DNA from: an uncultured Gammaproteobacteria bacterium
GTDB lineage: Bacteria > Patescibacteriota > Patescibacteriia > SBBC01 > CAIJZX01
Assembly (NCBI GenBank): GCA_964518425.1
Contig: CAZFGG010000001.1
Span: 120,597-176,935 of the forward strand
DNA: 56,339 nucleotides
Direction: 5' to 3'
Part shown: positions 2,754 to 42,886 of the stretch, one piece after another
How positions within the stretch are numbered: position 1 is the stretch's first letter
Layout of the letters: the number at the start of each line of letters is the position of its first letter
Notes under the pieces: generated by a model
Seen by the model: only the letters and a program-made list of their open reading frames with translations
Told to the model about the DNA's origin: nothing
Database searches by the model: none
Position numbers and translations under genes: made by a program

Positions 2754-3965
2754 ATGCCCGTCTACGATTATAAAGCCAAAGATGCTGACGGTACGACGAT
2801 TACCGGCGCGGTTGAAGCGCCGAACGACGTTGTTGCCCAAGACACCCTGAAGGAACGCAGCCTGATCGTTGTTTCGTTGTCCGAACGAAAACGGAATACG
2901 CTCTTCCAGTCGAGCTTAGGTTTCTTCAACCGCGTACCCAAGAAAGATGTGGTTCTATTCGCCAGGCAGTTAGCGGTCATGATTTCCGCTACCGTCCCGA
3001 TCGTCCAAGCCCTTCGTATTCTCGTCAAGCAGACATCGAACATCACGTTTAAAATTATCATCTCCGAAATCGCTGACGAAGTTGATGGTGGCGCGAAACT
3101 TTCTGGTTCATTGGCCCGGTACCCCCAAGCTTTTTCCGATTTCTTCATTCACATGGTCCGTTCCGGAGAGACGACCGGCAAACTCGACGAGACCCTGAAT
3201 TACCTGGCCGACCAGCAAGAAAAAGATTACGATCTCGAAAGCAAAATTAGAGGCGCGATGATCTACCCGGCCTTTATCCTCAGCGCCATGGTTGTGATCG
3301 GCGTTCTCATGATGGTTTTCGTCATCCCGAAACTAACTGACGCCCTGAAAGCAGGCGGGGCAAAGTTACCGCTGGCGACAACCATCCTGATCGGTATTAG
3401 TAGTTTTCTACAGCACCAATGGTGGCTATTATTGGCCCTGATCATCATTGGTGTAACGGTTGCCCGGCTCTACTTACGTACGCCCGGCGGTCATCGGCAA
3501 TTTGATACGCTCAAGTTCCACTTGCCGATTTTTGGGGAAATTTTCCAAAAAATTTACCTCGTTCGTTTCTCTCGGAGTTTTTCAACGCTCATCGCCAGCG
3601 GTATCCCGGCCACGAAAGCCCTAGAAATTGTAGCTGACGTCATTGGCAACGTCATTTACAAAGATTTAACACTCCAAACAATTCAGGAGGTTGAGGCGGG
3701 GAATTCGATTGCCTCGGTCCTCGTCCAAAGCAAGGTCGTCCCGCCGATGTTACCACAAATGATGATCGTCGGGGAACAGACCGGTAAACTTGACCTTATT
3801 TTGGATAAGTTAGCGACCTTCTACGCTAAGGAACTTGAAAACGTTGTGGCGAACTTGGTCAGCATTATCGAGCCGTTAATCCTGGTTGTCATGGGTGGGG
3901 CGGTCGCGGTTATTGTCATGGCTATTTTGCTCCCGCTCTACAATCTTTCCAGTGCCATTAGTTAG
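2754..3965 (+). CDS. pilC: Type IV pilus inner-membrane platform protein PilC/GspF
   Basis: 403 aa with a duplicated GspF-type cytoplasmic domain and three hydrophobic segments. Lies directly after pilB/pilT. Confidence 0.92.
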   Translation: MPVYDYKAKDADGTTITGAVEAPNDVVAQDTLKERSLIVVSLSERKRNTLFQSSLGFFNRVPKKDVVLFARQLAVMISATVPIVQALRILVKQTSNITFKIIISEIADEVDGGAKLSGSLARYPQAFSDFFIHMVRSGETTGKLDETLNYLADQQEKDYDLESKIRGAMIYPAFILSAMVVIGVLMMVFVIPKLTDALKAGGAKLPLATTILIGISSFLQHQWWLLLALIIIGVTVARLYLRTPGGHRQFDTLKFHLPIFGEIFQKIYLVRFSRSFSTLIASGIPATKALEIVADVIGNVIYKDLTLQTIQEVEAGNSIASVLVQSKVVPPMLPQMMIVGEQTGKLDLILDKLATFYAKELENVVANLVSIIEPLILVVMGGAVAVIVMAILLPLYNLSSAIS

Positions 3966-3982
3966 ACCAAAAGCATTTTTTG

Positions 3983-3991
3983 TGCTATACT
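3983..3991 (+). promoter_or_regulatory. Extended -10 promoter element TGcTATACT upstream of the major pilin (about 105-nt 5' UTR)
   Basis: Exact TGnTATACT match in the pilC-pilin intergenic region. Confidence 0.5.
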
Positions 3992-4105
3992 CAATGTGGA
4001 TAACTAAAAAACGAACGAATCGAGGCGGGGTCTAGGGTTCAGTTGGATCTATGACCTCTAGTCTCTCACCCTTGACTCGCTCATCCCTGAAGGGAGGTGA
4101 ACATC

Positions 4106-7536: not shown

Positions 7537-8171
7537 CCCATCGCCGCGGCCAAACGCTCCTCGAAATGATCATCGGTATCGGTGTTATCACCGTGGCGAC
7601 GTTCGCGACGGCGACGCTGATTGTTTCTACGATTCGAACTGGTCGAGTCAGTCAAGCAAGAATTGAGGCGGCTGATCTCGCCCGCGAAGGGGTCGAAATC
7701 GTGCGCGGCATTCGCGATAGCAATTGGCTGAAAGCTGATCAGAACGCGGTCGAGAACGATGGGACAACCGTAGTCTGGAACTCGTATCGCGATGGCCTGG
7801 GGTATTATCCGATGAATGGCAAGTATACCGCCCTCTTTGTTCCGACAACTGGCCAGTGGACGCTCCAAACGACCGCCGCCGCAAGCTGTGTACTGTCCGA
7901 CGCGACGACACTGGTCTACCAGAAAACACAAACGGTCAGCGGGTCACCAACGACCTTCTACACGCAGCAAAATCCCTGTAACGGCTGCACGGCGACCAAT
8001 TACCATCGCATTATCGTTGTTACCCCGCTCCAAGATAATGTTACCTTCCCTGGCGCTGGTTCAGCGACACCGATTGATTATCTGTCGGTCGTGTCCACTG
8101 TTTGTGGCAATGCTCTCACTGGACCGAGCAAATCAATCGTTGCTTCGGCCCGCTTATATAATTGGAAATAA
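7530..8171 (+). CDS. Minor pilin-like protein (PilV-like, degenerate leader)
   Basis: MLAHRRGQTLLEMIIGIGVITVATFA; Glu+5 is retained and the start overlaps the previous stop. Confidence 0.75.
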   Translation: MLAHRRGQTLLEMIIGIGVITVATFATATLIVSTIRTGRVSQARIEAADLAREGVEIVRGIRDSNWLKADQNAVENDGTTVVWNSYRDGLGYYPMNGKYTALFVPTTGQWTLQTTAAASCVLSDATTLVYQKTQTVSGSPTTFYTQQNPCNGCTATNYHRIIVVTPLQDNVTFPGAGSATPIDYLSVVSTVCGNALTGPSKSIVASARLYNWK

Positions 8172-8172
8172 G

Positions 8173-8976
8173 ATGCCTCAACGCAAAGGATTCACCCTCA
8201 TCGAACTGCTCATCGTCACGGCCGTCTTTTCATTAATAGCGCTCGTCGCCACGACGGTGATTACTAGGATCCAGTCGACTCAGCGACAAATTCTCGGCCG
8301 CCAGCGAGTTGTCGCCGATGGACGATATGTCCTGGAAGCCATGGGTAGAACCATCCGCCAAAACCTTATCAACTATAAATACTACTGTAAGCCGGATCCG
8401 AACACTGGCTATTGCACATCAAGCCCATCTGGTGCCCAAACTATTTTGGCCTTGAAAGACACGACCAACGTCGAGACGTGCTATCTGTTCGATAATGTCA
8501 ATAAAAAAATCAGGATTATTTCGGGAACGAGCGTGACGAATTGTGCCGGTCCAAGTCCGGTCGACATCACGCCGGCTGACCTGGCGGTTGACGATTTTCA
8601 TATTTACATCACTCCGAAATCCGATCCATTCAAAACAGTTCCGCGCCAGAATACAGATTGCAAAGTCGCTCCAGTCGGAAACCCCGTCACGAGCGGGTAC
8701 GATCCGGACCGGAGCGTTTGCGCCTGCGTTGTCCAACCGATTAGCACCATTGATTGTTATCCTGATCAAGTGTGCGGTTCAACAGCCAACGTTGGCCAGG
8801 TATGTGACCCATTTGCGAACGGTGGTACTGGGGAAAAGAACTGTATTTGCCAAAACGCTAACCAGCAACCCCAAGTGACGTTGTTTATTTCTACCCGTTC
8901 CGTCAACCAGGCATCCGGCGAAAAATCACATTCCACCTTGCAGACCACCGTCACGAGTCACCTCTATCGACGATAA
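8173..8976 (+). CDS. Minor pilin / pseudopilin with a Cys-rich C-terminal domain
   Basis: Leader MPQRKG|FTLIELLIVTAVFSLIAL. The longer ORF from 7816 overlaps the previous gene and was rejected. Confidence 0.85.
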   Translation: MPQRKGFTLIELLIVTAVFSLIALVATTVITRIQSTQRQILGRQRVVADGRYVLEAMGRTIRQNLINYKYYCKPDPNTGYCTSSPSGAQTILALKDTTNVETCYLFDNVNKKIRIISGTSVTNCAGPSPVDITPADLAVDDFHIYITPKSDPFKTVPRQNTDCKVAPVGNPVTSGYDPDRSVCACVVQPISTIDCYPDQVCGSTANVGQVCDPFANGGTGEKNCICQNANQQPQVTLFISTRSVNQASGEKSHSTLQTTVTSHLYRR

Positions 8977-19101: not shown

Positions 19102-19185
19102 ATTTCCACCTCCCTTCTTCTGTGATCGTACTCTTGTGCATAGAGATGGTCTAGTCTCAGCGGCCATGACAACCCGAAAGCCATT

Positions 19186-19194
19186 TGCTATACT
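19186..19194 (+). promoter_or_regulatory. Extended -10 (TGcTATACT) placed 6 nt before ATG 19201, implying a leaderless mRNA
   Basis: Motif followed by a 6-nt gap and no SD sequence. Confidence 0.5.
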
Positions 19195-19200
19195 TCAAAT

Positions 19201-19785
19201 ATGTGGAAAAATATGGTTATTCTCAGCGTCATTGCGGCGGTCGCTGTTGCTGGGCTTGCCGCCTGGGCTCTCACGATGAGGGGTTCTTCATCGAATACAA
19301 ATATTCTTGTTCCGATTGGGAACAATGGGAATACTTCAGCGAATAATGTGAATGCAAACTCGCTCAATACCAATATCGTTGAGAACGCCTCGACAACGAA
19401 TACGTCAGCCAACAGCAATACATCATCCACGACCAACACGTCAAGCAACACCAACAGTTCCACGACCAACATCGGCGTTGATGCCGCCTTAGCTCAGCCA
19501 AGCCTGTACGACGGGAAACGCGTCTGTCTCGCCGGCGACTTCCAAAAATCGTTTGAGACCCAGGTCTTCGGAACGCAAATGACCACTGACGCTTACGGTA
19601 ATCCGTCCCTTGATGGACCATACGTCTACGCTAGCGGCACCGTGACGACGACCGGTCTAACCTGTGACCAGGCCGAGCGGCAAACGTGCACCGGCACGAA
19701 GACTTTGTGTGGAACATTCAAGGTGGCGACATCGACTGATGGGTTCACCTCGCAGCACTACAGGTACGAACTCATCATCAAATAG
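19201..19785 (+). CDS. Membrane-anchored surface protein with an Asn/Ser/Thr-rich linker
   Basis: N-terminal TM segment, about 70 aa of N/S/T low-complexity sequence, then a Cys-containing C-terminal domain. Confidence 0.7.
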   Translation: MWKNMVILSVIAAVAVAGLAAWALTMRGSSSNTNILVPIGNNGNTSANNVNANSLNTNIVENASTTNTSANSNTSSTTNTSSNTNSSTTNIGVDAALAQPSLYDGKRVCLAGDFQKSFETQVFGTQMTTDAYGNPSLDGPYVYASGTVTTTGLTCDQAERQTCTGTKTLCGTFKVATSTDGFTSQHYRYELIIK

Positions 19786-28767: not shown

Positions 28768-29628
28768 ATGGGCGATCCCGATGGCCGTCCCGGCCGCCTG
28801 ACTATTGTTACCCACCGCAAGCCCCACCTCGACGAGGTGGTGGCGAGTTGGCTGCTCCGAACATTTGATCCGGCTTTCCAGGATTGTCAGTTCCAATTCA
28901 TTGCCAATTCTCCAACTGGTGGCCAGATTCCTCCCGGCGACCACATTGTTCCGCTGGGCATTGGCCGAGGGAAATACGATGAGCATGGTTTGAAAGCCGG
29001 GCAGTCGGCGACCAAATTAGTGTATGAAGATCTTCTGAAGCGGGGACTCATTCCGAATGATCGGTATGAAGATAAAGCCTTAGCATGGCTCGTTGAGTAC
29101 ACTCATAAAGAAGACACGGCTCAGTGGCAGATTCACGAATTGGAAAATCGTAGTTTCTCTTTGCCGGCAATTCTTCGCGGGATTTGGGTCAACCACAAGG
29201 GTGGCGATCCCGACCAAGACGAGATGCGCCTAGGACTAGAAATGATTGATGGTCTGGTAACGCAATTGAACGAACGGGCCAAGTTCTTGAGTGATTGGGA
29301 CCAGCGGATTGAGTTTGTGTCGCCGTGGGGTAAGGCCGTTGGCCTGAGGAGCACCTATCGTGGCAGCGATGCTTTTGCTTATCAGCACGGGTTCATCTTG
29401 CGGGTCCAAACTGATCCATCGAAGCCGTATGGGGATTTTCGTGGAGAAGCGTCGAGCACTGTCGACCTGACCTCAATCTATGATCAACTTCAGAAGCTTG
29501 AGCCGAACGCCTGGTTTCTTCACCAGACCAAAAAAATCCTTGTCTCAAACAGTGATTCGTCAGCGGGCAACAAACGTCCGGCGACCACATTCTCACTCCA
29601 ACAACTCATTGATTTCGTAAAGCAGTAA
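28768..29628 (+). CDS. MYG1/UPF0160-like metal-dependent hydrolase candidate, inserted in the str operon
   Basis: [19 protein letters not shown] and [11 protein letters not shown] resemble the MYG1 motifs GTH.G.FH.DE..A..LL and GG.YD...DHH. The gene starts 3 nt after the rpsG stop and ends 4 nt before fusA. Confidence 0.6.
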
Positions 29629-29632
29629 ATTT

Positions 29633-31711
29633 ATGCCCCGCGAGTATTCTCTCGAACAAACCCGAAACATCGGAATCATCGCCCACATTGATGCCGGTAA
29701 AACGACCGTCTCTGAGCGCATCCTTTTTTACACTGGGAAAAAGCATAAAATCGGCGAAGTCCATGAAGGCGCGGCCGAAATGGACTGGATGGAACAAGAG
29801 AAAGAGCGGGGGATTACCATCACCGCCGCCGCCACGACCTGCTTCTGGAAAAACCATCGCATTAACCTGATCGATACCCCGGGGCACATTGATTTCACGG
29901 TTGAGGTTCAGCGTTCGTTGCGCGTACTCGATGGCGGCGTGGTTGTCTTTGATGGCGTGGCTGGCGTTGAACCGCAGTCCGAAACGGTCTGGCACCAAGC
30001 CGAAAAATACAATGTCCCACGCATTTGTTTCATCAACAAGATGGACCGGATGGGCGCCGATTTCTATTTTGACATTAAATCAATTCACGAACGTTTGACC
30101 ACCCGAGCCTACCCGATTCAATTGCCGATTGGCGCGGCTGAAACGTTTCAAGGCATTATTGATTTGTTCGAACGGAAGGCTGAAATCTACAAAGACGAAA
30201 TGGGTAAGGAATTCGAGCAAACCGATGTGCCGGCCGACATGAAGGATAAGGTTGAAGAATACCGGCATACACTTATCGAAGCGATTTGCGAAACGGATGA
30301 TAAGTTGCTCGAGCAATACCTCGCTGGGACCGAGCCGTCCGTTCCGGAGCTGAAAGCGGCACTTCGTAAAGCGGTTATTTCGAATACGCTCGTGCCAGTC
30401 CTCTGCGGATCAGCCCTCAAGAACAAGGGCGTACAATTCTTACTTGACGGCGTCAACGATTACCTGCCGTCGCCGCTCGACATCCCACCAGTCAAAGCGA
30501 CTGACCCAAAAACCGGAGCCGAAGTTGTCCGTCCGACGAGCGACGACCAACCGTTTACCGCTTTAGCCTTTAAAATTGCCACTGATCCCTTCGTCGGCAA
30601 ACTGGCGTTCTTCCGTGTCTACGCTGGGCATCTGTCCGCTGGCAGCTATGTCTTGAATACCACCACCGGTGACAAAGAACGGATTGGCCGGATTGTCCGT
30701 CTGCACGCGAATTCACGTGAAGATGTTGGTGAGGTCTTTGCCGGAGAAATTGCGGCCGCCGTCGGTTTAAAAGGTACCGTCACGGGTGATACGCTCTGCG
30801 ACCCTGATCATCCGATCCAACTCGAAAATATTGTCTTTCCCGAACCAGTTATTGACATCGCCGTTGAACCGAAGACAAAACAAGATCAGGAAAAAATGGG
30901 TATTGCTTTGGCTCGCTTAGCTGAAGAAGACCCGACCTTCCGCGTTCGCTCCGACGAAGAAACGGCCCAGACGATTATCTCCGGCATGGGTGAACTCCAC
31001 CTCGACATCATTGTCGACCGGATGAAACGTGAATTCAAAGTTGAGGCCAACGGCGGCAAACCACGCGTCGCCTACCGCGAAACAATCACGGCCACGGCTG
31101 AAGGCGAAGGCAAGTACATCAAGCAGTCTGGCGGTCGCGGTCAATATGGCCACTGTTGGATCCGCGTTGAACCGAACGAAACTGGCAAAGGCTATGAGTT
31201 CATTGACGAGGTCAAAGGCGGCGCTATTCCCCGCGAGTTCATCACGCCAATCAACAAGGGGATCAAAGAAGCCTTGGATACGGGCGTTATCGCGGGCTAC
31301 CCCATGGTCGACATCAAAGCCACGGTCTTCGACGGTTCCTCCCACGACGTTGACTCGTCCGAAGCCGCCTTCAAAATCGCTGGGTCGATGGGCTTTAAGG
31401 AAGCGGCCCGGAAAGCCAAGCCGGTGATCCTTGAGCCGATCATGAAAGTTGAAGTCATTACACCGGAAACGAATATGGGTGATGTCATTGGTGATCTGAA
31501 CTCGAAGCGAGCGGTGATCAACGCCATGAATGACCGCGGCCAAGCCAAAGTCGTTGATGCCCATGTTCCCTTAGGTGAAATGTTCGGCTACGCGACGTCC
31601 CTGCGATCGATGACCCAAGGTCGGGCCTCATACTCGATGGAATTCTCGCACTACCAATCTGTCCCGAAAAACGTGGCGGATACGATTGTGGGGGAGAGGG
31701 CAAAAGCATAA
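29633..31711 (+). CDS. fusA: Elongation factor G
   Basis: [15 protein letters not shown] and DTPGHIDF; 692 aa. Confidence 0.98.
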
Positions 31712-31730
31712 ATAATTCTGCAGCGGTGGT

Positions 31731-31767
31731 ACACAGCGCCGGTTTCGAAACCGGCGCTGTGTTTTTT
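31731..31767 (+). terminator. Intrinsic terminator after fusA
   Basis: Perfect palindrome ACACAGCGCCGGTTT..AAACCGGCGCTGTGT (about 13 bp effective stem) followed by T6. Confidence 0.85.
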
Positions 31768-31798
31768 CAATAAGCCAATGCTTATCCGGACAACCTGT

Positions 31799-32220
31799 GA
31801 ATAAATCTGCGGAAAACCCTGGGGGTAGGCTGGTGAAAACACCGCTTGTGCCGATACTGGCCATGCTTTATTCTTTTTTCACGAAGCAGCGACCGTCCGT
31901 TTGTAACCGATGAGGCCAGAGGCCAGTGACCACGCAAGTGGAAACAAACCGATGACCAGGAGAGTCGAAGCGATCGTAAGATCGAAAAGACAATCCGACA
32001 GAGGATACGAACAAAACTGGTGCGACCGGAGAAACGGAAGCGATTGCGGCCCACAAAGCCACGAACGAGACCGAATCATCGGAACATCAGTTGATCGAAA
32101 GATCAGAACCTCTATGCCAAGGTCTGGGGCAACCTGGATCACAACATGAGTTCTCGACGAACACGCTGCCTCAAGGGGCCCCGAAACTTCAGCAATGAAG
32201 CGTAAGGGCCCTCTTTTTTT
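31799..32220 (+). ncRNA. Candidate large structured RNA(s) in the fusA-tuf spacer, family unresolved
   Basis: No credible ORF. Four GNRA-tetraloop hairpins: CCAC-GCAA-GTGG 31930-31941, CGATC-GTAA-GATCG 31971-31984, TGATC-GAAA-GATCA 32092-32105, CTTCA-GCAA-TGAAG 32187-32200. An internal T6 lies at 31874-31879 and a terminal hairpin plus T7 at 32175-32220. Confidence 0.45.
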
Positions 32221-32282
32221 GCTAAGATTAGCTTAGAATGTGGTTTTGAGAACCTGACTGCTAGCCCATTTTAGGCCAAGAC

Positions 32283-32311
32283 TTGCGTTATTTCAGCCAT
32301 CTTGATATACT
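32283..32311 (+). promoter_or_regulatory. Sigma-70 type promoter for tuf (TTGCGT-N17-TATACT)
   Basis: 17-nt spacing, about 60 nt upstream of the tuf ATG. Confidence 0.55.
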
Positions 32312-32371
32312 CCGACCTGCGTTTCACGTGCTTTCTTAAGCAATTTTTTAACTTCGTAGGCATATACGACC

Positions 32372-33562
<1,191 letters not shown>

Positions 33563-42344: not shown

Positions 42345-42886
42345 TCCCGTTAGAAGCTATTATGCCCACATCTCCAAAACATCCTACTACTCAACGCTCG
42401 ATGAAAGGAGCTTCTAACGGGATGATCAGCCTGCACACGCTTTCGCCATCTCAAACGCGCCAGAAGTACAAACGTGTCGGTCGAGGAAACTCGTCCGGTA
42501 AGGGTACGACGGCTGGTCGCGGAACGAAAGGCCAACGCGCCCGGACTGGTGGACGAAATAAACTGACCCGTCGCGGCTTGAAGCATCTGATTGAACGGAC
42601 GCCGAAAACACGAGGCTTTCTCAGCCGACGAACAGCTATGTCCGTTGTGACCTTAAGCCAGCTTCAACAATCATTCTCCGATGGTCAGACGATTTCGCCA
42701 AACGCCTTGGTCAAGGCCGGCCTGCTCGCGCCGTCTCATCGCGGGGTTAAAATTATTGGTAACACGATCAGCAAGAAATTGATTATCAAGGCCAGCAAGT
42801 TTTCCTCGGCCGCCGCCGCGGCCATCACGAAAGCCGGCGGTCAAGCGGTCATGCCTGAAGCACAACCATCGTCTAACCCCACATAA
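42341..42886 (+). CDS. rplO: 50S ribosomal protein L15 (start uncertain: 42341 ATGA-overlap or 42422)
   Basis: KRVGRGNSSGKGTTAGRGTKGQ.AR.G. It follows rpsE directly, with no L30 gene in between. Confidence 0.93.
   Translation: MIPLEAIMPTSPKHPTTQRSMKGASNGMISLHTLSPSQTRQKYKRVGRGNSSGKGTTAGRGTKGQRARTGGRNKLTRRGLKHLIERTPKTRGFLSRRTAMSVVTLSQLQQSFSDGQTISPNALVKAGLLAPSHRGVKIIGNTISKKLIIKASKFSSAAAAAITKAGGQAVMPEAQPSSNPT

What the first reader, a model, noticed from the sequence alone, without database searches (positions are those of the whole stretch)
31768..32371. 660-nt non-coding spacer between fusA and tuf contains a candidate large structured RNA with four GNRA-tetraloop hairpins
fusA ends with a strong terminator (31731-31767) and tuf has its own promoter (32283-32311). 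The sequence between them has no credible ORF; the longest is an implausible 79-aa charged low-complexity frame. The plus strand is purine-rich. It carries four short perfect stems capped by GNRA loops: GCAA at 31930-31941, GUAA at 31971-31984, GAAA at 32092-32105 and GCAA at 32187-32200. Further hairpins lie at 31832-31843, 32026-32037 and 32071-32082. There is also a T6 stop at 31874-31879 and a terminal hairpin plus T7 at 32175-32220. Clusters of GNRA tetraloops are typical of large tertiary-folded RNAs such as ribozymes and OLE/GOLLD/ROOL-class RNAs. I found no RNase P (GGAAAGUCC / ACAGAA..GGCUUA) or tmRNA signature.
Basis: partly seen in the sequence, partly recalled or inferred. Interest (0 to 1): 0.7.

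Follow-up and report, generated by a model that had tools for sequence, protein, structure and literature searches.

The report
Lineage-restricted structured RNA gene before tuf
The gap between the fusA and tuf genes of this Candidatus Kerfeldbacteria (candidate phyla radiation) genome most likely holds a small gene for a roughly 340-base folded RNA of unknown function that matches no known RNA family; only one other genome was found to carry it.

Summary
The 660-nt fusA-tuf spacer has no credible ORF and no trace of a decayed gene. It is A-rich and T-poor, and carries 4-5 GNRA-capped hairpins against 0.08-0.35 expected.

- 31782-31874: unstructured but conserved DNA. It holds 12-nt-phased DnaA-box-like repeats and a conserved promoter-like pair (TTGTGC-17-TATTCT).
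- 31883-32172: a 290-nt, 91-bp, four-branch fold closed by its own 5' and 3' ends.
- 32173-32220: an intrinsic terminator, followed by the separate tuf promoter.

One clear homologue exists, in another Kerfeldbacteria MAG whose synonymous sites are saturated relative to the window. Its core cannot be found by sequence alone. A structure model built only from the window finds it end to end (E about 4e-9). Of the 91 pairs, 22 show double changes, and the homologue's own energy-based fold recovers 73% of the mapped pairs.

Rfam, ARAGORN and signature-motif checks are negative. Ten close relatives lack the element; their fusA-tuf interval is a hypervariable gene island.

Verdict: a plausible new, narrowly distributed structured ncRNA. 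Its function is unknown, it rests on two sequences, and nothing ties it to the OLE, GOLLD or ROOL classes.

The parts
31731..31767 (+). fusA intrinsic terminator (14-bp stem, UUCG-type loop, T6). It bounds the element on the left.
   Evidence: Terminator scan. Fold -27.3 kcal/mol, z -6.1.
31782..31830 (.). Conserved, unstructured upstream block of 9-mers phased every 12 nt: TTATCCGGACA (opposite orientation, disrupted), TGTGAATAA 31796-804 (perfect relaxed DnaA box TGTGNATAA), TGCGGAAAA 31808-816 and TGGGGGTAG 31820-828. Read as a protein-binding (possibly DnaA) regulatory site at about -100 to -52 from the predicted start.
   Evidence: It is near-identical in L002, and its first part is shared with L112. 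No RNA structure (z 0.06). The same 3-bp-spaced box layout, with perfect boxes, occurs in phage-like contigs L118 and L120. DnaA binding itself is inferred, not tested.
31846..31874 (+). Predicted sigma-70-type promoter of the RNA: -35 TTGTGC (31846-51), 17-nt spacer, -10 TATTCT (31869-74). Predicted start is about 31881.
   Evidence: L002 keeps TTGCGG-17-TATCCT at the aligned position while the spacer sequence has diverged. The distance from the first 9-mer to the -10 is 73 nt in both. The hexamers resemble the tuf promoter of the same genomes (TTGCGT-17-TATACT). This is an inference from the conservation pattern; there are no transcript data.
31883..32172 (+). Structured core of the RNA (290 nt, 91 predicted base pairs). 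Closing helices are 31883-91/32164-72 and 31894-97/32156-59. They enclose four branches: D1 31899-32012 (three-way, with the GCAA hairpin 31930-41 and the long GUAA hairpin 31959-96); D2 32015-32092 (long irregular hairpin with the conserved apical loop GGCCCnCAAAGCC); H3 32093-32104 (GAAA); D4 32105-32154 (GCAA-capped, 8-bp tip).
   Evidence: MFE z is -5.7 on the plus strand and -3.3 on the minus strand. L002 independently predicts the same architecture. The window-only covariance model hits L002 7695-7983 end to end, 36.7 bits, E 4e-9; the sequence-only model, nhmmer and blastn find nothing there. 22 of 91 pairs have changes on both sides, against 1-2 in slid controls. 61 of 83 mapped pairs are recovered by L002's own MFE.
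32173..32220 (+). Intrinsic terminator of the RNA: GGGCCC/GGGCCC stem with a nested GCAA-capped tip hairpin, then U7 (32214-20).
   Evidence: -20 kcal/mol. L002 has GGGGCCCGA/UUGGGCCCC with a GAAA tip at -22.7 kcal/mol, but a poorer U-tract.
32221..32232 (.). Palindrome GCTAAGATTAGC, an operator-like site that belongs to the tuf upstream region rather than to the RNA.
   Evidence: GGCTAAnnTTAGCC occurs once or twice upstream of tuf in L081, L082, L110, L111 and L113, and only here in the 56-kb window.
32283..32311 (+). tuf promoter (TTGCGT, 17 nt, extended -10 TGaTATACT). It bounds the element on the right.
   Evidence: It is conserved in all close relatives, whether or not they carry the RNA.

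Best explanation
The spacer holds a stand-alone gene for a structured non-coding RNA of about 340 nt on the plus strand.

Inferred steps:
- A sigma-70-type promoter (TTGTGC-17-TATTCT, 31846-31874) starts transcription near 31881.
- The promoter lies 17 bp downstream of a conserved array of 12-nt-phased DnaA-box-like 9-mers. These probably bind a regulator.

Shown by comparison with one homologue: the transcript folds into a closed four-branch structure (31883-32172) whose 5' and 3' ends pair with each other.

Seen in the sequence: it ends at its own intrinsic terminator (32173-32220), upstream of the separate tuf promoter.

Between the two known copies the shape is conserved, not the sequence. 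Only a few loop and junction motifs stay constant: GAGAGGCCA, CGCAAG, GGCCCnCAAAGCC, UCGGAA..CAGUUG and UUCUCGAnGA.

My best guess for the mechanism is a stable trans-acting RNA that works through its fold, as a protein-binding or scaffold RNA. GNRA loops and A-rich internal loops would pack the branches together. This last step is inference only. The gene is accessory: it sits in a hypervariable island and most close relatives lack it.
For: - Non-coding: there is no credible ORF, no Pfam hit, no 3-nt periodicity of substitutions (0.43/0.51/0.44) and no tblastx or profile match to any gene that relatives carry in this interval.
- Homologue: it lies at the syntenic place directly upstream of tuf in L002 (nhmmer E 7e-28 for the whole spacer). 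Fourfold-degenerate sites of fusA and tuf are only 43-49% identical between the two genomes.
- Structure rather than sequence is conserved. The window-only CM gives 36.7 bits, E 4e-9, end to end. The sequence-only model, nhmmer and blastn on the core find nothing.
- Covariation: 22 of 91 pairs changed on both sides, 94% of cells paired, slid controls 1-2 pairs and 28-40% paired.
- L002's own MFE recovers 61 of 83 mapped pairs.
- RNAalifold on a plain MAFFT alignment gives z -4.4 against column shuffles.
- Strand: GNRA loops occur only on the plus strand. The structural alignment holds about 15 G-U cells, which would be A-C mismatches on the minus strand. z-scores are stronger on the plus strand in both genomes.
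- Gene-like anatomy: the -35 and -10 hexamers are conserved at fixed spacing within a diverged spacer, the RNA ends pair with each other, and both copies have a terminator.
Against: - Only two sequences carry the fold, so covariation cannot be tested statistically. The structural alignment was fitted to a structure derived from one of them.
- There are no transcript data, and the promoter is only a 3/6 + 4/6 match to consensus.
- The terminator U-tract in L002 is poor.
- Ten close relatives (L081, L082, L085, L110, L111, L112, L113, L114, L116 and the P0010 contig) have no detectable copy at this locus. A third genome (L112) shares only the upstream block.
- An exact-pattern scan of 241 million metagenome records found no further copy.
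- No partner, target or phenotype is known, so the scaffold or protein-binding role is a guess.
Confidence: 0.6

Rival explanations
1. It is a cis-acting leader or attenuator. An upstream second promoter of tuf would produce a long structured 5' leader, and its terminator (32173-32220) would be conditionally read through into tuf, in the manner of a riboswitch or a protein-mediated attenuator.
For: The element always lies directly upstream of tuf, on the same strand, in both genomes. The L002 terminator has a weak U-tract that would allow read-through. In both copies the tip of D4 could pair with the 5' arm of the terminator (6 bp, seen in the sequence; not tested).
Against: tuf keeps its own conserved extended -10 promoter about 60 nt downstream of the terminator. 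Close relatives with 91-93% identical EF-Tu have that promoter but no element. There is no Rfam riboswitch or T-box hit. The RNA's 5' and 3' ends pair with each other, as in stand-alone stable RNAs.
Confidence: 0.12
2. It is mainly a DNA-level element: a DnaA-binding locus, either DARS/datA-like or a remnant of a replication origin. The 3-bp-spaced box array would be the functional part and the downstream 'fold' incidental.
For: The best-conserved part is the unstructured block with a perfect relaxed DnaA box and two or three degenerate boxes at a 12-nt phase. The layout (one box opposite, the next two in the same direction, the middle one consensus) resembles the DARS core described in PMC6868365. 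The same layout with perfect boxes recurs in phage-like contigs. Related blocks occur upstream of tuf in relatives without the fold (L081, L110, L112).
Against: Only one 9-mer is a good DnaA box. Boxes are not enriched in the window (23 found against 27 expected). GC skew does not switch and the flanking genes are co-directional. A DNA-binding locus does not explain 22 compensatory pair changes, or a core that only a structure model can detect. DARS boxes I and II are 5 bp apart, not 3.
Confidence: 0.08
3. It is non-functional debris of the hypervariable fusA-tuf island: decayed genes or leftover sequence from a mobile insertion that happens to fold well.
For: The interval is a hotspot where relatives carry His_Phos_1, GNAT, LigT, NUDIX and orphan genes, including a frameshifted His_Phos_1 in L112. 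The element is patchily distributed. Palindrome-rich intergenic controls also reach z of about -4 (L082).
Against: There is no protein-level similarity to any island gene, nor to the Phd/YefM-like small protein of more distant relatives. There is no match in phage or plasmid collections. At 43-49% identity of fourfold sites, neutral DNA would not keep 88% of 83 pairs with 22 double substitutions. The promoter hexamers and terminator are retained.
Confidence: 0.1
4. It is a very divergent member of a known housekeeping RNA family (RNase P RNA, SRP RNA, 6S or tmRNA) that the Rfam models miss in CPR bacteria.
For: The size, the paired 5' and 3' ends, the multi-branch core and the GNRA loops are reminiscent of RNase P RNA. 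There are short chance-level resemblances (GGGUAGGCUG, and GGGUGAAAGG in L002), recalled from memory of E. coli M1 RNA.
Against: There is no Rfam hit at E<=10 with permissive filters and no tmRNA by ARAGORN. The best matches to the P4 signatures have 3 and 4-5 mismatches and lie outside the fold. SRP, T-loop and T-box signatures are absent. A housekeeping RNA would not be missing from this locus in most close relatives, although it could lie elsewhere in their genomes.
Confidence: 0.04

Closest known systems
Large 'ornate' bacterial ncRNAs of unknown function (OLE, GOLLD, ROOL, HEARO, raiA motif)
   Same: It is a non-coding, highly structured, multi-branch fold with several GNRA tetraloops. 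It has a stand-alone transcription unit and its function is unknown.
   Different: There is no Rfam match to any of them. It is much smaller (about 340 nt, against 500-800 nt for OLE, GOLLD and ROOL). Only two copies are known, in one genus-level clade. It lacks the characteristic gene neighbours (for example oapA for OLE; from memory). Most GNRA loops are not conserved between the two copies.
Bacterial RNase P RNA (rnpB)
   Same: It is a 300-400-nt stable RNA whose 5' and 3' ends pair in a closing helix. It has a multi-branch core with GNRA-capped hairpins, its own promoter and its own terminator.
   Different: The universally conserved P4 sequences are absent. There is no hit to RF00010, RF00011 or related models. 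No conserved pseudoknot was found, and the element is absent from this locus in most close relatives.
Protein-sequestering or scaffold RNAs such as 6S RNA and bacterial Y RNAs
   Same: The shape is conserved far better than the sequence, the ends are paired, and it is a stand-alone gene near housekeeping genes. This is the proposed mode of action, by analogy only.
   Different: 6S is a single long hairpin with a central bubble, whereas this is a four-branch fold. There is no Rfam hit and no Ro/Rsr or RNA-polymerase link is known here.
E. coli DARS1/DARS2 core (DnaA-reactivating sequences), compared with the upstream block only
   Same: It is a non-coding locus with a cluster of DnaA-box-like 9-mers. 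One is opposite in orientation to the next two, and the middle one matches the consensus (PMC6868365).
   Different: The spacing is 3 bp rather than 5 bp. The outer boxes have 2-3 mismatches and the opposite-orientation box is interrupted by GG. The organism is a CPR bacterium in which no DARS is known, and binding is untested.

Membership tests
Any Rfam 15 family (4227 models, including OLE, GOLLD, ROOL, HEARO, raiA, RNase P, SRP, 6S, tmRNA, T-box, riboswitches and group I/II introns) | A covariance-model match at or near the family's gathering score | tested here: not met
   At gathering thresholds only two tRNAs match in the whole window. The permissive search of 31650-32450 at E<=10 returns only terminator-like fragments of unrelated sRNA models, far below their thresholds. 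Nothing matches in the fusA-tuf gaps of 14 relatives.
RNase P RNA | Conserved P4 strands (GAGGAAAGUCC ... ACAGAAnnnGGCUUA) | tested here: not met
   The best matches have 3 and 4-5 mismatches, lie outside the fold and differ between the two copies.
RNase P RNA | Presence as a single essential gene in every genome of the clade | not testable with these tools
   Only 5-10-kb loci of relatives could be read. The element is absent from the fusA-tuf locus in 10 of 11 close relatives, but the rest of their genomes was not searched.
tmRNA | A tRNA-like domain with T-arm and CCA end, plus a tag reading frame | tested here: not met
   ARAGORN finds no tmRNA. The T-loop signature has at least 3 mismatches.
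Riboswitch or T-box type cis-regulatory leader of tuf | It lies in the 5' UTR, between the gene's promoter and its start codon, and its terminator or RBS-sequestering helix competes with an alternative fold | tested here: inconclusive
   The conserved tuf promoter lies downstream of the element's terminator, so the element is not in the main tuf 5' UTR. Read-through from the upstream promoter cannot be excluded without transcript data.
Structured ncRNA in general (RNA-level selection) | Base pairs are maintained by compensatory substitutions in homologues, beyond what sequence conservation explains | tested here: met
   22 of 91 pairs changed on both sides, with slid controls at 1-2. The CM detects the homologue (E 4e-9) while the sequence-only model, nhmmer and blastn do not. 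The independent MFE overlaps at 73%. Caveat: there are only two sequences, so no R-scape-type statistic is possible.
Structured ncRNA in general | A discrete transcript with defined ends | not testable with these tools
   Only sequence signals are available: a conserved -35/-10 pair and an intrinsic terminator.
DnaA-box cluster (oriC, DARS or datA type) | Several 9-mers close to TTATNCACA in a defined arrangement | tested here: inconclusive
   There is one perfect relaxed box (31796-804). Its neighbours at a 12-nt phase have 2-3 mismatches. The layout resembles the DARS core and box trios on phage contigs. There is no enrichment in the window.
Chromosomal replication origin (oriC) | A GC-skew switch, divergent gene orientation or an AT-rich unwinding element beside the boxes | tested here: not met
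   Cumulative GC skew declines steadily across the spacer. fusA and tuf are co-directional. No AT-rich unwinding element lies next to the block.
Decayed protein gene | Residual protein-level similarity, or codon-phased substitution | tested here: not met
   tblastx against all loci, an HMM of the Phd/YefM-like small protein against six frames, Pfam on all ORFs and a substitution-phase test are all negative.

The most novel reading that the evidence does not exclude
This is the first representative of a new class of compactly folded RNA from candidate-phyla-radiation bacteria. It would be an accessory RNA gene that rides in a variable island beside the translation-factor genes, with transcription set by an array of DnaA-type boxes. 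That would couple an RNA of the translation locus to the state of the replication initiator.
Probability: 0.15. Interest if true: 0.7.

Novelty: new member of a known kind. Interest (0 to 1): 0.45.

Why it matters
Patescibacteria (the candidate phyla radiation, CPR) have tiny genomes and very little non-coding DNA.

A 290-nt fold that has been kept through saturating sequence divergence implies a function that works through shape. If more members are found, it would add a new RNA family and a testable example of an accessory ncRNA in an uncultured lineage.

The upstream box array, if it binds DnaA, would be a rare case of initiator-controlled RNA expression.

With two sequences and no transcript evidence it remains a candidate, worth a targeted Infernal search rather than a headline.

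Tried and rejected
- **Known RNA family.** Rfam at gathering thresholds and with permissive filters, ARAGORN, and signature motifs for RNase P, tmRNA, SRP and T-box were all negative.
- **Decayed gene.** More distant Patescibacteria carry a Phd/YefM-like small acidic protein between fusA and tuf. A profile of 14 of them run against all six frames of the spacer gave nothing. tblastx against 117 loci gave nothing but L002. Pfam on the ORFs gave nothing. UGA recoding gives longer frames that are not shared between the two copies.
- **More homologues.** I examined 80 genome loci found through EF-G and used all 12 look-ups of contigs encoding close EF-Tu or EF-G relatives. The closest relative's contig (95% EF-G) ends 33 nt after fusA. 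A metagenome scan with GGAAAANCCTGGGGGTAGG gave 24 chance hits. Two viral-contig scans gave 0 hits and 3 hits, none carrying the fold. The two-sequence CM over 95 sources found nothing new.
- **L112 as a third member.** It shares GGACAACCTGTGAATAA and has its own 350-nt non-coding stretch and terminator. However, it gets no CM or nhmmer hit to the core, and its z-score is only -2.0. It is not counted.
- **Mobile element.** There is no match in the phage or plasmid collections.
- **Replication origin.** Rejected on box counts and GC skew.
- **5' region as RNA.** An RNA fold of 31785-31882, including the RNAalifold pairs GUGAA/UUCAC and GGGUA/UAUYC, has no energetic support (z 0.06 and -0.2 to -0.4) and no covariation. 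The promoter reading is preferred, but this one is not excluded.

Full report
**Context**

The window comes from a Candidatus Kerfeldbacteria (Patescibacteria, CPR) metagenome-assembled genome. Its EF-G and EF-Tu are closest to Kerfeldbacteria MAG proteins, and the exact proteins sit on a 176,935-bp NCBI contig. fusA is 29633-31711 and tuf is 32372-33562, both on the plus strand, so the spacer is 660 nt.

**Checking the observation**

- So is the tuf promoter (TTGCGT 32283-88, 17 nt, TGaTATACT).
- So is the 79-aa charged ORF.
- The four listed GNRA hairpins exist, and there is a fifth at 32121-32140 with G-U pairs.
- Against 1000 dinucleotide shuffles, the count is 4 hairpins with Watson-Crick stems of at least 4 bp (expected 0.08), or 5 allowing G-U (expected 0.35). 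No shuffle reached either count, and the minus strand has none.
- The plus strand is 57-65% purine, with only 12-13% T in the centre.
- Folding energy is unusually low: z -4.1 on the plus strand and -2.4 on the minus strand over 31768-32225.

The T6 at 31874-79 is not preceded by a hairpin, and the first ~100 nt are not structured (z 0.06).

**Not a known RNA and not a decayed gene**

- Rfam 15 gives no match in the spacer at gathering thresholds. With permissive filters at E<=10 it returns only terminator-like fragments.
- ARAGORN finds no tmRNA.
- Signature motifs of RNase P, tmRNA, SRP and T-box are absent in both copies.
- The ORFs have no Pfam hit. The ORFs at the same place in the homologue are unrelated.
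- Substitutions show no codon phase.
- tblastx against 117 fetched loci hits nothing but the homologue.
- Many more distant Patescibacteria carry a small Phd/YefM-like protein with an acidic tail between fusA and tuf. A profile of 14 such proteins finds no trace in any frame of the spacer.

**Relatives**

Among 80 species-representative genomes found through EF-G, only L002 (CAYLHT010000004.1; EF-G 90%, EF-Tu 94%) has a homologous sequence. It lies at 7592-8188, directly upstream of tuf, with nhmmer E 7e-28. In L002, a histidine phosphatase gene and a GNAT acetyltransferase gene lie between fusA and the element.

I then fetched contigs of the closest EF-Tu and EF-G relatives, using all 12 look-ups. 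L081, L082, L085, L110, L111, L113, L114 and L116 lack the element.

In this genus the fusA-tuf interval is a hypervariable island. Its contents range from nothing (277-324 nt) to His_Phos_1, GNAT, two LigT-type 2',5'-RNA-ligase genes, NUDIX, or a 412-aa orphan.

L112 shares only the first ~20 nt (GGACAACCTGTGAATAA). An unrelated 350-nt non-coding stretch and terminator follow.

An exact-pattern scan of 241 million metagenome records with the best-conserved 19-mer gave 24 hits, all chance. The phage and plasmid collections gave nothing.

**Evidence for a conserved RNA fold**

Fourfold-degenerate sites of fusA and tuf are only 43-49% identical between the window and L002. Neutral DNA should therefore be unalignable. 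The evidence that a fold has nonetheless been kept:

- Each sequence, folded on its own, gives the same architecture. Two closing helices formed by the 5' and 3' ends enclose:
  - a three-way domain D1;
  - a long irregular hairpin D2;
  - a short hairpin H3;
  - a long hairpin D4.
  A terminator hairpin follows the closing helices.
- A covariance model built from the window sequence alone, with its MFE structure (R1), finds L002 7695-7983 end to end at 36.7 bits, E 4e-9.
- A sequence-only model from the same input (R3) finds nothing at E<=10. nhmmer and blastn with the core also find nothing.
- In the structure-guided alignment, 22 of the 91 pairs have changes on both sides and 94% of cells pair. 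Sliding the partners by 1-3 columns leaves 1-2 such pairs and 28-40% pairing.
- L002's independent MFE recovers 61 of the 83 mappable consensus pairs.
- On a plain MAFFT alignment, the RNAalifold consensus energy is 4.4 sd below column shuffles on the plus strand and 3.0 sd below on the minus strand.
- Examples of fully compensated hairpins:
  - CCACGCAAGUGG / CCCCGCAAGGGG
  - CGAUCGUAAGAUCG / GUUGGGGAGACCUAAC
  - UGAUCGAAAGAUCA / UUGCCACUAGGCAA
- The closing helix has three double changes.
- G-U pairs (about 15 cells) and the GNRA loops place the RNA on the plus strand.

The caveats are serious. There are only two sequences, and the alignment was fitted to a structure derived from one of them.

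**Anatomy**

It is the best-conserved stretch in sequence, yet it has no folding signal (z 0.06 in the window and about -0.2 in L002).

It consists of 9-mers phased every 12 nt:
- TGTGAATAA, a perfect relaxed DnaA box;
- TGCGGAAAA;
- TGGGGGTAG;
- an oppositely oriented, interrupted TTATCC-GG-ACA ahead of them.

Exactly 17 bp downstream comes TTGTGC-17-TATTCT. L002 keeps TTGCGG-17-TATCCT at the same 73-nt distance from the first 9-mer, although the spacer between the hexamers has diverged.

I read this as regulatory DNA plus a sigma-70-type promoter. The predicted start, near 31881, is two bases before the first paired base of the fold. The RNA would then be about 340 nt, ending at the terminator (GGGCCC stem with a nested GCAA hairpin, -20 kcal/mol, U7 at 32214-20).

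Downstream come an operator-like palindrome (32221-32232) and the tuf promoter. Relatives without the RNA have both of these.

**The DnaA-box lead**

A viral-contig scan with the block pattern returned two phage-like contigs, L118 and L120. Both carry the same 3-bp-spaced layout with perfect boxes, including an upstream box that was not part of the query.

The layout is one box opposite to the next two, with the middle box matching consensus. It matches the published description of the E. coli DARS core except for the spacing (PMC6868365).

On the other hand:
- DnaA boxes are not enriched in the window.
- There is no GC-skew switch.
- Only one 9-mer is a good box.

An origin is therefore rejected, and DnaA binding remains a lead, not a finding.

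**Interpretation**

The best-supported reading (about 0.6) is an accessory, stand-alone structured ncRNA gene. Its function is unknown. Because the shape is conserved and the sequence is not, with only a handful of invariant loop and junction motifs, I favour a protein-binding or scaffold role. That step is inference.

Rivals:
- a conditional leader of tuf (0.12);
- debris of the variable island (0.10);
- a DNA-level DnaA locus (0.08);
- a very divergent housekeeping RNA (0.04).

Only two of the five GNRA loops stay GNRA in the homologue, and no model of those families matches.

**Verdict**

This is a real and moderately interesting candidate for a new, narrowly distributed RNA family. It is best followed up with an Infernal search across Patescibacteria and with metatranscriptome mapping.

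Noticed in passing
fusA-tuf interval in L002 6085-7555, L081 1938-3176, L110 1672-3261, L112 2390-2991, L113 44-655, L116 6314-9595: In this Kerfeldbacteria genus the fusA-tuf interval is a hypervariable island. Its contents range from nothing (277-324 nt) to His_Phos_1, a RimJ/RimL-like GNAT, one or two LigT-type 2',5'-RNA-ligase genes, NUDIX, or a 412-aa orphan. L112 carries a frameshifted His_Phos_1.
   Followed up: partly
L003, L006, L007, L009, L013-L016, L023, L024, L026, L027, L029, L033, L036, L040, L041, L065 (between fusA and tuf): Many more distant Patescibacteria encode a small protein directly upstream of tuf. It has a weak Phd/YefM-antitoxin-like N-terminus (E 6e-4 to 6e-3, below the Pfam cut-off) and an acidic tail that often ends in DDQYYFEP. 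It is a conserved, unannotated neighbour of the elongation-factor genes.
   Followed up: partly
window 32221-32232; L081 3279 and 3350; L082 3357; L110 3305 and 3354; L111 1082; L113 851: The palindrome GGCTAAnnTTAGCC occurs in one or two copies upstream of the tuf promoter in most close relatives, and only once in the 56-kb window. It looks like an operator for a dimeric regulator of tuf or the S10 operon.
   Followed up: partly
L118 3518-3555 (-), L120 12021-12060 (-), L109 3945-4060 (+): Phage-like contigs carry trios or arrays of DnaA boxes spaced by 3 bp (TTATCCACA|ACC|TGTGAATAA|nnC|TGTGGAWAA). In L118 the trio lies just upstream of a ParB-methyltransferase-like gene. L109 adds TGTATAAC iterons. 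The layout resembles the DARS core.
   Followed up: partly
window 42575-42667 (-): ARAGORN calls a 93-nt tRNA-Arg(tcg) here. Rfam finds no tRNA, even at E<=1 with permissive filters, so it is probably a false positive or a very unusual tRNA.
   Followed up: partly
window 28768-29628 (+): A 286-aa gene sits between rpsG and fusA, inside the str operon. It has only a weak ChrB_C-like match (E 8e-4, below the cut-off). Relatives keep it at the same place (L082, L112, L116).
   Followed up: no
window 3145-4003 and 19135-19225: These are small clusters of DnaA-box-like 9-mers: four within 860 nt, including a perfect TTATCCACA at 3995-4003, and three within 90 nt. Overall the window shows no enrichment.
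   Followed up: no
L115 (JAYVYU010000164.1): The contig of the closest relative (EF-G 95%) ends 33 nt after the fusA stop, at the terminator, so its spacer could not be read. Assemblies may break at this variable locus.
   Followed up: no
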